Part shown: positions 40,052-42,771 of the stretch, in pieces
Numbering within the stretch: position 1 is the first letter of the stretch
Layout: the number at the start of each line of letters is the position of its first letter
DNA from: a virus
Taxonomy: Duplodnaviria > Caudoviricetes
Virus record (IMG/VR): IMGVR_UViG_3300020043_000644
Coordinates: 1-54,406 of that record
Strand: one strand, 5' to 3'
Length of the DNA stretch: 54,406 bases
The notes under the pieces: generated by a model
Seen by the model: the letters and a program-made list of their open reading frames with translations, nothing else
Databases searched by the model: none
What the model was told of the DNA's origin: nothing
Made by a program: the position numbers and the translations under genes

Positions 40052-41122
40052 TTAAGCTGCGTTGTACTTGGCGGTAACAATAGCCTCTGGACGGAGGATC
40101 TTGCGACCATAGAGATGCATACCACGAACAATGTCAGCGAAGCTGTCAGGATCACGATAGCTCTCTGTCTTGGTGATTTGCTGAGCGGAAGCAACAGCTG
40201 CGTCATGACCAGCAACGATAACACCAAAGTTAGATGACTGTGCAGATGCACCGGTTGTGCCGGGACCTGTACCAATCTTTGGTAGGTTGTTGGAAACATA
40301 AACACGGAAGCCATGGAGATTATTTAAAATCAAACCATTTTGCAATCCAGAGCCACCAAAGTCACCGTTCAATAAACGGCTGTCTTCGTCTTTCAACATC
40401 TCAACAAACACTGGGTCAACAACTAACCAACGACCATTTGTGTCTACGAACTGTTGATCAAGTAAACGACCCATACGAGCGATTACTGTCAGTGGCGATA
40501 CAAGCGTTGTTGATACAGCTGTTTGACCGGGGAAGCGTGGTGATAAAGGAATCGAATCACCAGCAGAACCACCAGATGTCAAGTTACCAAAGTTAGGACG
40601 GCTCAACTGCATGCCAGACAACAACTCGTTAGAACCAGCAGAGCTTACAGCCTTGGTGCCGGGGAAAGTTGTACGTGCTGTGTCAGGTGAACTGTGCTTA
40701 GCTGATTGGCTAAAGCCAGCCAAATAACCTAGTACGTCTTGGTCATACTGGTCACGCAAGCGATATGCTGCACGATCAGAAGCCATAGACATAAAGTTTA
40801 CGTGGCTATGGGCTGCTTCGATATCGTCAATCTTGAATGCGAAGTAGTTAGCTTGGTCAACAACGAGTGTGAAGTCCTCATCGTCCAAGTCTTGTGCTGT
40901 GATCTGTGTGCCACGAGCATACGACTGAACAGAAACTTCTGGCTCTTTGATGATCTTAACGCTGTCACCCATGTTAGCGATCTCACCAAAGTAATCATTG
41001 TTGGTGATGTCTTCTACTACGGACGATTTACGGAATGCAAGTTGTACTTGTTTGGAATAGATAACCGGTGAAAAATTTCCATTTGGAAGGTTACCATATC
41101 CCGCTGCTGAAGGGAATGCCAT
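40052..41122 (-). CDS. major capsid protein
   Basis: NF.P.IYSK, NNDYFGEI..GDSVKI, E.YRDPDSFADIVRG..LYGRK.LRPE. Confidence 0.9.
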   Translation of the reverse strand: MAFPSAAGYGNLPNGNFSPVIYSKQVQLAFRKSSVVEDITNNDYFGEIANMGDSVKIIKEPEVSVQSYARGTQITAQDLDDEDFTLVVDQANYFAFKIDDIEAAHSHVNFMSMASDRAAYRLRDQYDQDVLGYLAGFSQSAKHSSPDTARTTFPGTKAVSSAGSNELLSGMQLSRPNFGNLTSGGSAGDSIPLSPRFPGQTAVSTTLVSPLTVIARMGRLLDQQFVDTNGRWLVVDPVFVEMLKDEDSRLLNGDFGGSGLQNGLILNNLHGFRVYVSNNLPKIGTGPGTTGASAQSSNFGVIVAGHDAAVASAQQITKTESYRDPDSFADIVRGMHLYGRKILRPEAIVTAKYNAA

Positions 41123-41224
41123 TTTTAATTCTCCTAATAAGTGAAAGGCATAATATAAAATTACTCTCTACTCATATCGGGAGCCTCATGCATTAGGTGC
41201 TTATAACTTAAACCTCTAGACTGT

Positions 41225-41779
41225 CTAAGGTATAAGGGCTAACTCTGTAGGGTAGTCCTTGATACTATTGTTTTGAGCTACATAATGACAAAGCTGAATA
41301 AACAATTGCTCTGAATACTCTTGCTTCATCTTATTAATAGCAGCACAGACTAATTGAATGTTGCCAACAATGTAGCCTTTACCACTATCAATTCGATCTA
41401 GGCTTACGGTATTAAACTGGTTGGATGTTGCAAGCATCGGCAGCTTAGTATAAGCACAAAGACCTTTTTGTATACCCCAAAGATTTTGTAAATCAATCTC
41501 TGAAATATTAAATTCTTTATTTTTTCTTTGTCTTGCATTAGTACATAAATTTTTTAATCTTGAATCTATGTCCCTAGTAAACTTTGGTGTATACGTTTTA
41601 CTATAGCAATTTACTCTTGTTTTTATATCTTCTTTATTTCTAAGGTAGTAGTGCTTTGAACTGATCCTTGCACATTTTTTACATTCACCACCTACCCCGT
41701 ACTTTTTTGTTTTGTCTTTATTAAAATTTAATATTAACTTTTCAATACCACAAGTACGGCATTTCTTTAATTGTTCCAT
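41225..41779 (-). CDS. HNH-like homing endonuclease with N-terminal zinc ribbon
   Basis: CRTC...CKKC; SLDRIDSGKGY..GNIQLVC..INKMK; AT-rich insert between scaffold and MCP. Confidence 0.75.
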   Translation of the reverse strand: MEQLKKCRTCGIEKLILNFNKDKTKKYGVGGECKKCARISSKHYYLRNKEDIKTRVNCYSKTYTPKFTRDIDSRLKNLCTNARQRKNKEFNISEIDLQNLWGIQKGLCAYTKLPMLATSNQFNTVSLDRIDSGKGYIVGNIQLVCAAINKMKQEYSEQLFIQLCHYVAQNNSIKDYPTELALIP

Positions 41780-41856
41780 CTTTAACTCCGCTCAGTTAAG
41801 GATGGGCTATCTAGTAAAGCGGTACCAGAAAGGGAGCTACCCTGTTCGCCCATGTA
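41776..41856 (-). ncRNA. candidate structured cis-regulatory RNA (three-way junction plus kissing hairpin)
   Basis: P1 AUGGGC/GCCCAU, P2 AGGG-UAGCU-CCCU, P3 CUGGUA-CCGCUU-UACUAG, P4 UUAACU-GAGCGG-AGUUAA; loops of P3 and P4 are complementary. Confidence 0.55.
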
Positions 41857-41861
41857 CTACA

Positions 41862-41889
41862 GTTATAAACTAAAAATCTAGTTTGTCAA
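41862..41889 (-). promoter_or_regulatory. sigma70-type promoter for the HNH-MCP unit
   Basis: TTGACA(41889-41884)-16 bp-TATAAC(41867-41862). Confidence 0.6.
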
Positions 41890-41892
41890 TAC

Positions 41893-42771
41893 CTATCTTG
41901 CTGAACCAGTACGGTCATATATAAACTTACCCGCCTTAATTGCAGCTACAATAGCTTCTTGATTCTTCTCATATTCTGCAGAAGACATCCGTTCTATATC
42001 TGATTCACGGAATGTGCCCTGTTCATTGGAAGCATCAAAACCTGCTTTACTGCTACTACCTACGGATTTAGCAGCATCTCTGTCATCTGACTTCTTAGAC
42101 TTCTTGCCAGTTAAACCCATGTCTGCCTTGTATAAATCAATTGCACGGGCAGCCGAGATAGCATCACTTTCGTTCTCATACAGGGCACTTTGTACCCATT
42201 TAGGCTGAGCTTCCACCCAATCATGGAACTGCTCTTGGTCACGAATATCATTAAAATCAGGGTGTAGACGCATTAATTCTGTCTCTGCCCTCTGTCTTAA
42301 TGTCTCCGCTTCCCTTTCATCTAGCTTCTTAAGACGCTCTTCCAAAGCCTTAGATTGTTCCTGTGCCTTTTTCATGGCAATGGTTTCAACAATCTTAGCT
42401 ACGTCAGGAAACTCCTTAGACCATTCGGCAATCTCTTCTTCCGACTTTGGCATACGAAGCTGCTTAGTAGCTGCTTTATCTAGTTGTCCCTTTAGTTCTT
42501 CAATCTGCTTTTGCATATCAGCTTGTTGCTTCTGAGTATGCCTACGCAAATCTCCGTACCGTTTCTTGAAGCTTTTCTCTTCTGGGTTAGTTGGCTCTGG
42601 ACCATCTTCCCCATCAGCATCTTGTGCTTCAGCCTTTACTTCTTCACCCTTGTTAATATCTTGTAATGTCTTTAACTCTGCTTCTTCTTGCTCAATTCGT
42701 TCTTTGTTAGCATTCCGTGTTGCAAAACCAGAAGCCATCTTAACTTGAGTCTCTACTTTTTGAAGTTCCAT
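41893..42771 (-). CDS. capsid scaffolding protein
   Basis: FKKRYGDLRRH, HPDF, coiled coil, C-terminal GKFIYD.TG.AR; lies upstream of the MCP. Confidence 0.8.
   Translation of the reverse strand: MELQKVETQVKMASGFATRNANKERIEQEEAELKTLQDINKGEEVKAEAQDADGEDGPEPTNPEEKSFKKRYGDLRRHTQKQQADMQKQIEELKGQLDKAATKQLRMPKSEEEIAEWSKEFPDVAKIVETIAMKKAQEQSKALEERLKKLDEREAETLRQRAETELMRLHPDFNDIRDQEQFHDWVEAQPKWVQSALYENESDAISAARAIDLYKADMGLTGKKSKKSDDRDAAKSVGSSSKAGFDASNEQGTFRESDIERMSSAEYEKNQEAIVAAIKAGKFIYDRTGSAR

What the first reader, a model, noticed from the sequence alone, without database searches (positions are those of the whole stretch)
41776..41889. Kissing-loop RNA switch in front of a homing endonuclease inserted in the capsid operon
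Seen on the - strand just after a TTGACA/TATAAC promoter: P1 AUGGGC(41853-48)/GCCCAU(41807-02) encloses P2 (AGGG-UAGCU-CCCU) and P3 (loop CCGCUU). P4 follows (loop GAGCGG) and holds the GGAG RBS. The two 6-nt loops pair fully (5 WC + 1 GU). Alternatively CCAUC(41805-01) pairs with GAUGG(41780-76), burying the AUG and excluding P1. Known: T4 homing endonucleases are held down by RBS-sequestering hairpins. Inference: a two-state translational switch, or an RNA cofactor that travels with the nuclease as one mobile unit.
Basis: partly seen in the sequence, partly recalled or inferred. Interest (0 to 1): 0.75.

Follow-up and report, generated by a model that had tools for sequence, protein, structure and literature searches.

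The report
Kissing-loop RNA leader of homing endonucleases
A folded stretch of about 80 bases of RNA that hides the ribosome-binding site sits in front of a selfish nuclease gene in this lake phage, and the same fold precedes many unrelated nuclease genes in very different phages, so it appears to be an undescribed portable control element of these mobile genes.

Summary
Every helix named is present at window 41853-41777 (- strand). The window copy alone folds no better than shuffles (z -0.69). Comparison settles it: 124 of 169 loci fetched through the nuclease protein carry the same leader ending at the ATG. In 82 distinct leaders, 23 of 24 pairs change on both sides. The 6-bp loop-loop helix has 42 different L3 sequences. 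Own partners pair over at least 6 bp in 76 of 82; foreign ones do so in 7.5%. Its 3' end always covers the Shine-Dalgarno. The same fold precedes endonuclease genes falling into 11 BLAST clusters (His-Me/HNH types, GIY-YIG, LAGLIDADG, DUF559) in phages of 30-60% GC, including E. coli phage EP_H11. No Rfam family matches, and four literature searches found no description. Relatives without the nuclease show that leader plus ORF is the inserted unit and that the TTGACA/TATAAC promoter is resident. The proposed AUG-burying alternative helix is not conserved, so a two-state switch is unsupported. Unrelated nucleases argue against an RNA cofactor. Best reading: a portable translational throttle. 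A sensor role for the conserved junction is not excluded.

The parts
41862..41889 (-). Promoter-like element TTGACA-N16-TATAAC. It is resident to the phage (the presumed capsid-gene promoter), not part of the insert.
   Evidence: Sequence. It is the only match in the window. It is conserved in HEG-less relatives L294, L295, L296 and L299. The consensus scanner did not list it because the last base of the second hexamer is C. Promoter function is inferred.
41777..41853 (-). Structured leader: P1-P2-P3 three-way junction, P4 hairpin, L3:L4 kissing helix and start codon.
   Evidence: The covariance model R1 matches 41777-41861 at 68 bits, E 6e-16, and is the only match in the window with filters off. 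Covariation.
41848..41853 (-). P1 5' strand AUGGGC. It pairs with 41802-41807.
   Evidence: All 5 scored P1 pairs change on both sides in A4.
41802..41807 (-). P1 3' strand GCCCAU.
41844..41847 (-). Junction strand J1/2 (GAAC here, GAAAA in most). The first three bases, GAA, are nearly invariant.
   Evidence: G 81 of 82, A 82 of 82 and A 82 of 82 in A4. Invariant in the 72 leaders of A2.
41831..41843 (-). P2 hairpin AGGG-UAGCU-CCCU.
   Evidence: The stem covaries in rare variants with different stems and loops. GGGUAGCUCCC occurs in 78 of 82, but that sample is biased by the search pattern.
41811..41828 (-). P3 hairpin (CUGGUA / UACUAG) carrying the anti-SD loop L3, CCGCUU, at 41817-41822.
   Evidence: All 6 P3 pairs covary. 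There are 42 distinct L3 sequences.
41808..41810 (-). Junction strand J3/1 (AUA here, CUA in most). The UA is invariant.
   Evidence: U 82 of 82 and A 82 of 82.
41782..41799 (-). P4 hairpin (UUAACU / AGUUAA) with loop L4, GAGCGG, at 41788-41793. The Shine-Dalgarno GGAG is at 41786-41789.
   Evidence: All 4 scored P4 pairs covary. The 3' end of the kissing helix lies 5-11 nt before the AUG, mostly 7-8.
41225..41779 (-). Free-standing homing-type endonuclease gene (184 aa), a divergent His-Me finger / endonuclease VII-like protein.
   Evidence: PHROG 1035, endonuclease VII, 7e-31, and PHROG 3118, HNH, 3e-16. hhalign to an endonuclease VII-type family gives 99.2% probability. No Pfam or PDB match by sequence. 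Presence/absence polymorphism.
41262..41852 (-). Approximate extent of the inserted cassette (leader plus most of the ORF). The last ~12 codons and the stop are read from native 5'UTR sequence.
   Evidence: Alignment with four HEG-less relatives. Identity runs up to 41853 and resumes at about 41258-41263.
40052..41122 (-). Major capsid protein gene downstream of the cassette.
   Evidence: Pfam Phage_capsid_4, 1e-11. PHROG 267, major head protein, 2.5e-65.
41893..42771 (-). Upstream 292-aa ORF at the scaffold position of the head module. Function not shown.
   Evidence: PHROG 13678, unknown function, 3.6e-59. The name 'scaffold' is my inference from gene order.

Best explanation
This is a conserved, cis-acting structured mRNA leader of about 80 nt that belongs to free-standing homing endonuclease cassettes of phages.

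Fold:
- A three-way junction (P1, P2, P3) has a nearly invariant junction core: a C-G closing pair, GAA on one strand and UA on the other.
- The junction presents the 6-nt loop of P3.
- That loop forms a 6-bp kissing helix with the loop of a fourth hairpin, P4, lying 1-11 nt after P1.
- The 3' end of the kissing helix plus the 3' strand of P4 contain the Shine-Dalgarno, 7-8 nt before the AUG.

Proposed mechanism: folding buries the ribosome-binding site. The nuclease is then translated only at a low, leak-through level, whatever transcript it sits on. In the window that transcript is the promoter-proximal 5'UTR of the major capsid mRNA. Elsewhere it is a tRNA array or the inside of an operon.

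Shown: the fold, the loop-loop pairing, its overlap with the SD, the association with many nuclease families, and the insertion of leader plus ORF as one unit.

Inferred: that it lowers translation, that this is constitutive rather than signal-dependent, and that the conserved junction serves geometry (P3 folded back along a P1-P4 stack so that the two loops meet).
For: Structure.

Specificity of the kissing helix:
- 76 of 82 leaders pair over at least 6 contiguous bp with their own partner, and 80 of 82 over at least 5.
- Non-cognate combinations reach 6 bp in 7.5%.
- There are 42 distinct L3 sequences.
- The helix ends 5-11 nt before the AUG.

L3 starts with C (80 of 82) then C or U. These bases pair with the G (77 of 82) and G or A that begin the SD.

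The leader always ends at the start codon of the nuclease: 124 of 169 loci of the window's nuclease family, and 17 of 80 loci of a second endonuclease VII-type family.

A scan with a 14-nt pattern that is blind to the downstream gene gave full motifs in 67 of 120 loci. All 49 distinct complete downstream ORFs fall in endonuclease families or clusters.

Cassette boundaries.

Two near-identical phages share the leader and the first ~8 codons at 100% identity, but their nuclease bodies are only 35-73% identical.

Precedent: T4 I-TevI, I-TevII, I-TevIII, segB and Aeh1 mobE carry consensus SDs sequestered in stable RNA structures (PMC2988022, passages read).
Against: - No experiment or expression data bears on translation. 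RNA runs gave only contigs.
- A simple hairpin or a weak SD would be enough for a constitutive throttle. The elaborate junction and the strongly conserved P2 sequence therefore hint at an additional partner or signal.
- Many homologous nucleases do without it: 63 of 80 in the second family, and 34 distant relatives among the 45 of 169 loci without a match in the first family (the other 11 are partial matches or loci cut at a contig end).
- The window copy on its own is not unusually stable.
Confidence: 0.62

Rival explanations
1. Conditional switch. The same fold is a sensor (riboswitch-like, protein-binding, or dependent on Mg2+, temperature or RNA processing). The conserved junction and P2 bind a universal factor or metabolite, which stabilises or releases the kissing helix. 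The nuclease is then made only at a particular stage or state of infection.
For: About 10-16 conserved unpaired positions, comparable with small aptamers: GAA and UA invariant, and CU plus the UAGCU loop nearly so. Helices vary freely while the junction does not. The architecture (three-way junction plus loop-loop contact that controls the SD) resembles known riboswitch logic; this is recalled, not tested. T4 nucleases are temporally controlled through RNA structure.
Against: No conserved alternative pairing was found; the only one proposed fails. P2 is replaced wholesale by other hairpins in several lineages. The regulated genes are selfish nucleases with no metabolic link that would suggest a ligand. 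There is no Rfam match.
Confidence: 0.2
2. RNA processing or stability element. The junction is a small self-cleaving ribozyme or an RNase substrate (RNase P/E-like) that frees or protects the nuclease mRNA, or a 5'-terminal stabiliser. SD pairing would be secondary.
For: P1 begins 3-10 nt after a -10-like hexamer in 17 of 51 distinct contexts, and directly after tRNA genes in 6 of 51 (tRNAs confirmed in L218, L235 and L172). Precedent of an RNA device in front of a homing endonuclease: the GIR1 branching ribozyme (PMC2219692, abstract in the listing).
Against: No match to any ribozyme family in Rfam 15. In 28 of 51 contexts there is neither a -10-like box nor a tRNA upstream. The most strongly covarying feature is the SD-covering helix, at a fixed distance from the AUG.
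Confidence: 0.1
3. P1 alternates with a CCAUC/GAUGG helix that extends P4 and buries the AUG.
For: The helix exists in the window and is in its MFE structure.
Against: Across 72 leaders it is 60.3% paired against 61.5% in shuffles, with 0 of 4 pairs covarying, and 491 of 500 shuffles do as well. P1, which it would exclude, covaries strongly.
Confidence: 0.03
4. RNA cofactor or guide that works with the nuclease protein.
For: Strict physical linkage with nuclease genes.
Against: The linked nucleases belong to 11 BLAST clusters and at least four catalytic superfamilies. The variable loops pair with each other in cis, not with a plausible DNA target. There is no Rfam hit to HEARO-type RNAs.
Confidence: 0.02

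Closest known systems
RBS-sequestering hairpins of T4-type homing endonuclease mRNAs (I-TevI, I-TevII, I-TevIII, segB, Aeh1 mobE)
   Same: A strong SD about 8 nt before the AUG of a phage homing endonuclease is buried in RNA structure, limiting translation (PMC2988022, passages read).
   Different: Those are simple, gene-specific hairpins relieved by late promoters that start inside the hairpin. This is one conserved family with a three-way junction and a kissing loop, shared by unrelated nucleases in unrelated phages. No conserved internal start or alternative fold was seen.
Riboswitches whose loop-loop or pseudoknot contacts occlude the SD (purine-type three-way junction with kissing loops, guanidine-II, SAM-II/preQ1 types). 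Recalled, not fetched.
   Same: A compact fold with a conserved junction, variable helices, and a tertiary helix that includes the SD.
   Different: No Rfam family matches. The kissing sequences are hypervariable rather than conserved. No ligand is suggested by gene context. No expression-platform alternative was found.
GIR1 lariat-capping (branching) ribozyme in front of homing endonuclease ORFs in twin-ribozyme introns
   Same: A structured RNA device placed directly 5' of a homing endonuclease ORF that serves its expression (PMC2219692, abstract seen in the listing).
   Different: GIR1 is group-I-related and catalytic, and is larger and eukaryotic by recall. Here there are 80 nt, no Rfam match, and a direct SD-pairing role.
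HEARO / omega-RNA of IscB nucleases (recalled)
   Same: A structured RNA next to an HNH-type nuclease gene on a mobile element.
   Different: That RNA is a guide bound by one protein family. Here the proteins are small, diverse homing endonucleases, the RNA ends at their start codon, and no Rfam hit was found.
E. coli rpsO (S15) operator pseudoknot
   Same: A pseudoknot or hairpin structure at the translation start region that controls initiation (abstract of PMC3985624 in the listing).
   Different: It is protein-dependent autoregulation of a single gene family. Here autoregulation is implausible because the proteins are unrelated.

Membership tests
Any Rfam 15 family (riboswitches, ribozymes, leaders, HEARO, GIR1 and the rest) | Covariance-model match at or near the gathering score | tested here: not met
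   No matches in the whole window at gathering thresholds. Nothing at the leader with E up to 10 in 41000-42100. Nothing at the 9 motif sites of 8 diverse loci with E up to 1.
T4-type RBS-sequestering hairpin of homing endonuclease mRNAs | SD of the nuclease gene base-paired in a stable local structure | tested here: met
   The kissing helix plus the P4 3' strand cover GGAG/GGGG 5-11 nt before the AUG in 82 of 82 distinct leaders.
T4-type RBS-sequestering hairpin of homing endonuclease mRNAs | A single hairpin formed by adjacent sequence | tested here: not met
   The pairing partner is the loop of P3 inside a three-way junction, so this is a loop-loop helix.
T4-type RBS-sequestering hairpin of homing endonuclease mRNAs | A promoter inside the structure that gives transcripts lacking the inhibitory half | tested here: inconclusive
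   No sigma-70-like site inside the leader. The P1-P4 linker is only 2 nt in 30 of 82. Phage-specific promoter types are not covered by the tool.
Riboswitch | Conserved aptamer-like core with covarying helices next to an expression platform | tested here: met
   The junction GAA / UA is invariant and the helices covary.
Riboswitch | Mutually exclusive alternative structure, or ligand-dependent folding | tested here: inconclusive
   The one proposed alternative helix is not conserved. No other was searched for systematically. Ligand binding is not testable here.
Riboswitch | Specific small-molecule ligand | not testable with these tools
   Needs in-line probing or equivalent.
Self-cleaving ribozyme | Site-specific self-scission | not testable with these tools
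   Only the absence of matches to known classes could be shown.
Free-standing homing endonuclease gene (the window ORF 41779..41225) | Nuclease-family protein | tested here: met
   PHROG 1035 at 7e-31. hhalign gives 99.2% probability to an endonuclease VII-type family of which 13 of the 49 scanned proteins hit Pfam Endonuclease_7. Caveat: the DH of the catalytic motif reads DR in all 37 aligned members.
Free-standing homing endonuclease gene (the window ORF 41779..41225) | Presence/absence polymorphism at a fixed site between conserved genes | tested here: met
   Of 70 loci with both flanking genes, 9 have it (gap 696-836 nt) and 61 lack it (gap 182-348 nt). Boundaries.
Free-standing homing endonuclease gene (the window ORF 41779..41225) | Site-specific cleavage of the empty allele, and homing | not testable with these tools
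   Needs co-infection or in-vitro cleavage assays.

The most novel reading that the evidence does not exclude
The leader is more than a lock. It would be a new class of sensor RNA, or a small catalytic or processing RNA, that unrelated homing endonucleases have repeatedly captured. Its invariant junction would read a universal cue of the infected cell (a metabolite, ion, ribosome or RNA-polymerase state, or RNase) and license nuclease translation only then. That would make it the first shared 'expression licence' of selfish nuclease genes, and a naturally modular, programmable kissing-loop switch.
Probability: 0.2. Interest if true: 0.92.

Novelty: new variant of a known kind. Interest (0 to 1): 0.8.

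Why it matters
Control of free-standing homing endonucleases is called largely unknown in the T4 review read here. The known cases are idiosyncratic hairpins.

A single, structurally elaborate leader shared by His-Me/HNH, GIY-YIG, LAGLIDADG and DUF559-type nucleases across phages of very different composition has several implications:
- These selfish genes travel, and swap their ORFs, as a standard RNA-plus-ORF cassette.
- It explains how they can sit in the most heavily transcribed places of a phage genome, such as the capsid mRNA leader and tRNA arrays.
- It gives annotators a marker for nuclease cassettes whose proteins have no Pfam hit, such as the window's own and that of EP_H11.

The hypervariable yet always self-complementary loop pair is a natural set of orthogonal kissing-loop locks, which may interest RNA engineers. 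The copy in a cultured E. coli phage, with a sister phage that lacks it, makes the questions directly testable.

Tried and rejected
- Single-sequence folding. The window leader is not more stable than shuffles (z -0.69), so thermodynamics alone gives no support.

- Rfam. Nothing at gathering thresholds or at permissive E-values, in the window and in 8 diverse loci. The three weak window hits (TCL6_1, mir-499, IS009) lie elsewhere and far below threshold.

- Alternative AUG-burying helix. Rejected.

- uORF idea. In the window P1 starts with AUG and opens a 23-codon frame ending 2 nt before the nuclease AUG (read). Most leaders have no AUG there, and the closest relative L123 hits a stop inside P3. 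Rejected as a family feature.

- tRNA-like or CCA idea. A subset has CACCAA after P1. The window clade lacks it, and the Rfam tRNA model does not hit the motif. Not pursued.

- Pairing between the P2 loop and J3/1. There is no covariation: AUA junctions keep UAGCU loops.

- Hammerhead-like reading of GAAA / CUG junction strands. The order of strands does not fit. This is my inspection against a recalled consensus.

- Promoter scan. The consensus scanner does not list TTGACA/TATAAC because it demands T at the last position. The -10-like box may therefore be atypical. A search for the box elsewhere in the window gave chance numbers.

- Expression. RNA-library runs hold only small shares, and only as contigs. 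One 165-nt record covers 41846-41977. Nothing can be concluded about transcription, ends or levels.

- Deposited phages. BLAST with two motif queries found only EP_H11. This method sees only near-identical cores.

- Cellular genomes. The 19-nt core occurs once in 185,579 species genomes, on a 4-kb MAG contig.

- Protein identity of the window nuclease. No Pfam hit and no PDB relative by profile. The AlphaFold2 model has mean pLDDT 67.7, with residues 109-135 (the first part of the catalytic region) below 50, so no fold search was run.

- Literature. Four full-text searches found no description of this motif. The main text of PMC10690425 (over ten thousand candidate structured RNAs in viruses and phages) mentions homing endonucleases only in its reference list. 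Older motif catalogues that I recall are represented in Rfam, as far as I know.
Full report
**What is in the window**

On the - strand a 292-aa ORF (42771..41893; PHROG 13678, unknown function) ends with TAG. It is followed by these elements:
- TTGACA (41889-84), 16 nt, TATAAC (41867-62);
- an 85-nt leader;
- a 184-aa ORF (41779..41225);
- a 102-nt spacer;
- the major capsid gene (41122..40052; Pfam Phage_capsid_4 and PHROG 267).

These are P1 41853-48/41807-02, P2 41843-40/41834-31, P3 41828-23/41816-11 with loop CCGCUU, and P4 41799-94/41787-82 with loop GAGCGG. GGAG lies at 41789-86. The two loops are complementary (5 WC + 1 GU).

Taken alone, this is not significant. RNAfold gives -23.6 kcal/mol against -21.25 +/- 3.39 for shuffles (z -0.69). 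No Rfam family matches.

**The nuclease**

The 184-aa protein has no Pfam or PDB relative by sequence. It does match PHROG 1035 'endonuclease VII' (7e-31) and HNH PHROGs. Its family profile aligns with an endonuclease VII-type His-Me family at 99.2% probability. The position of the catalytic DH reads DR in all 37 aligned members. An AlphaFold2 model was too uncertain in that region to search with.

**Relatives prove the fold**

A deposited lake podovirus (MW202701.1, L001) has the same gene order. Its leader differs in P1, P3 and both loops, yet every pair is kept, and the loop pair is changed at four of six positions.

I then fetched 169 loci through the nuclease protein. The covariance model R1, built from 72 distinct leaders, finds the leader in 124 of them, always ending at the nuclease ATG. 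The 45 misses break down as follows:
- 34 distant homologues (at most 39% identity) in other contexts;
- 8 loci holding only partial or weak matches;
- 3 loci cut at a contig end.

On the 72 leaders:
- 96.7% of cells are paired, against 82.7% in shuffles;
- 17 of 24 pairs change on both sides;
- the kissing helix is 99.3% paired, with 5 of 6 pairs covarying;
- 0 of 500 shuffles reach four of the five measures (the count of further pair types was reached by 414 of 500);
- slid controls drop to 35-53% paired.

RNAalifold independently predicts P1-P4. It adds a seventh P3 pair, G-C in most and U-A in the window clade.

**The family is much wider than this nuclease**

With R1 it gave 67 loci with full-length motifs of 35-101 bits, in contigs of 30-60% GC. 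Three loci have two copies. The other 53 loci hold only the 14-mer.

Of the 61 hits I tabulated, 49 distinct complete ORFs start at the motif's ATG. I dropped duplicates, two ORFs cut by locus ends (L222, L186), and two low-scoring hits without an ATG at that place (L171 and the second copy in L248).

The 49 proteins form 11 BLAST clusters:
- a cluster of 33 that includes the endonuclease VII-like proteins (33 of 49 match PHROG 1035 and 13 match Pfam Endonuclease_7);
- HNH_2 types (4);
- GIY-YIG / NUMOD types (3, plus L240 matching a homing-endonuclease PHROG);
- zf-His_Me types (2);
- HNH_3 with and without AP2;
- a minimal HNH;
- DUF559;
- LAGLIDADG;
- L263, matching endonuclease PHROGs.

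In a second endonuclease VII-type family fetched through its own alignment, 17 of 80 loci carry the leader. So the association is frequent but not obligatory.

**The combined alignment**

There are 89 hits, 82 of them distinct. In it, 95.5% of cells are paired against 71.5% in shuffles. 23 of 24 pairs change on both sides, and 0 of 500 shuffles reach any of the five measures. The kissing helix was not in the model, so its columns were not fitted to it.

A script that ignores the alignment and asks for the longest L3-to-tail helix gave these results:
- at least 6 contiguous bp in 76 of 82 leaders, and at least 5 in 80 of 82;
- 7.5% of non-cognate combinations reaching 6 bp;
- 42 distinct L3 sequences;
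- the helix ending 5-11 nt (mostly 7-8) before the AUG, which is on the SD.

The invariant unpaired positions are GAA after P1 and UA before its 3' strand. The P1-to-P4 linker is 1-11 nt long, most often 2. From this I infer a continuous P2-P1-P4 stack, with P3 folded back so that the two loops meet. This geometry is an inference.

P2 is GGGUAGCUCCC in 78 of 82, but many of these were found with that very pattern. Where retrieval was blind to P2, other hairpins occur with different stems and loops. P2 is therefore a real but replaceable arm.

**The mobile unit**

80 loci were fetched through the capsid protein. Of these, 70 hold both flanking genes:
- 9 have nuclease plus leader, with a gap of 696-836 nt;
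- 61 have neither, with a gap of 182-348 nt.

I aligned four empty relatives, whose capsid proteins are up to 98.6% identical to the window's. The TTGACA...TATAAC element and the next 9 nt are resident. Identity stops exactly at the first base of P1 (41853/41852). It resumes inside the 3' end of the nuclease ORF at about 41258-41263, so the last ~12 codons are read from native capsid 5'UTR. The cassette thus replaced some 130-170 nt of that UTR.

One empty relative (L355) keeps a degenerate junction-like relic of 24 bits, without P4, SD or ORF. It is probably the scar of a lost cassette.

Two nearly identical phages (L174 and L262) share flanks, leader and the first ~8 codons at 93-100% identity. 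Their nuclease bodies are only 35-73% identical. This is an ORF exchange behind a common leader.

Among 50,697 deposited phage records, my BLAST-level searches found the core only in E. coli phage EP_H11 (OP688485.1, 22489-22573, 85 bits). It lies in front of a 303-aa ORF with a weak GIY-YIG signal. Its relative IME392 lacks leader and ORF, and the left breakpoint lies about 7 nt before P1.

The 19-nt core occurs once in one genome per 185,579 prokaryotic species, on a 4-kb MAG contig. The window itself is held by lake, freshwater and estuary metagenomes.

**How it most likely works**

Shown: a conserved fold in which the SD is base-paired to a loop presented by a three-way junction, directly 5' of nuclease genes, moving with them.

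Inferred: this lowers initiation. T4-type endonucleases offer the precedent. Their consensus SDs are sequestered in stable hairpins and their over- or mistimed expression is harmful (PMC2988022). I therefore read the leader as a portable translational throttle. It lets a nuclease cassette sit on very abundant transcripts, here the first cistron of the capsid mRNA, without flooding the cell with nuclease.

The leader is not tied to a 5' end. A -10-like box lies 3-10 nt before P1 in 17 of 51 contexts and a tRNA gene lies just upstream in 6 of 51. In 28 of 51 there is neither.

Against a purely constitutive lock stands the cost of such an elaborate, conserved junction. I give 0.2 to a signal-dependent switch and 0.1 to a processing or stability role.

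A nuclease cofactor is implausible given the unrelated proteins.

**Novelty**

No Rfam 15 family matches, and four full-text searches found no description. Supplementary tables of large phage RNA-motif catalogues (PMC10690425) could not be read and may list it without interpretation. The principle of SD sequestration for homing endonucleases is known. The conserved kissing-loop family shared across nuclease superfamilies is, to my knowledge, not.

Noticed in passing
window 41123-41258 (- strand); L294, L295, L296, L299 intergenic regions: Relatives without the nuclease have a 182-348-nt 5'UTR between the resident promoter-like element and the capsid ATG. Its 3' ~135 nt are well conserved, also in the window. 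It may hold a structured element of the capsid mRNA of its own.
   Followed up: no
L355:1995-2080: A nuclease-less relative keeps a degenerate junction-like relic (P1, GAAAA, a P2 hairpin, CUG, an imperfect P3, CUA; 24 bits) with no P4, SD or ORF behind it. It is probably a scar of cassette loss.
   Followed up: partly
window 41779..41225 protein, residues 126-152: In the window's nuclease family, the DH of the His-Me motif of the related endonuclease VII-type family aligns with DR (LDRID). R129 is invariant in 37 sequences, and the CxxC after it is absent. Whether the protein cuts, nicks or only binds is open.
   Followed up: partly
P2 loops in window 41835-41839, L001, L248:6756-6846, L392: Several independent P2 variants have self-complementary loop cores (AGCU, AAUU within UAAUUA, UGCA, GGCC), and two are perfect 12-nt palindromes. 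This could be a mutational by-product of hairpin formation or a dimerisation site. Other variants (GACG, UCGCU, UAGC) are not palindromic.
   Followed up: no
window 41853-41782 (- strand): P1 begins with AUG about 9 nt after the -10-like box. It opens a 23-codon frame through the whole leader that stops 2 nt before the nuclease AUG. This is not conserved in other leaders.
   Followed up: partly
L244:2843-2901, L191:5631-5691: Rfam DUF2815 RNA (RF03084) matches above the gathering score in two of the phage contigs that also carry the leader.
   Followed up: no
L218, L235, L172 and others: Leader-nuclease cassettes sit inside phage tRNA gene arrays, with P1 starting a few nt after a tRNA 3' end. 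L218 has two cassettes with the same L3 sequence.
   Followed up: partly
L244, L201, L245, L191, L173, L251, L197, L237, L198 and related loci: One large clade shares the insertion site directly after a gene ending in a conserved C-terminal peptide. It also shares a CACCAA stretch between P1 and P4, and often TAGTATAAT just before P1.
   Followed up: no
window 41862-41867: The conserved -10-like hexamer ends in C, not T. This is unusual for sigma-70 promoters, and the element is unique in the window. The polymerase that uses it is unknown.
   Followed up: partly
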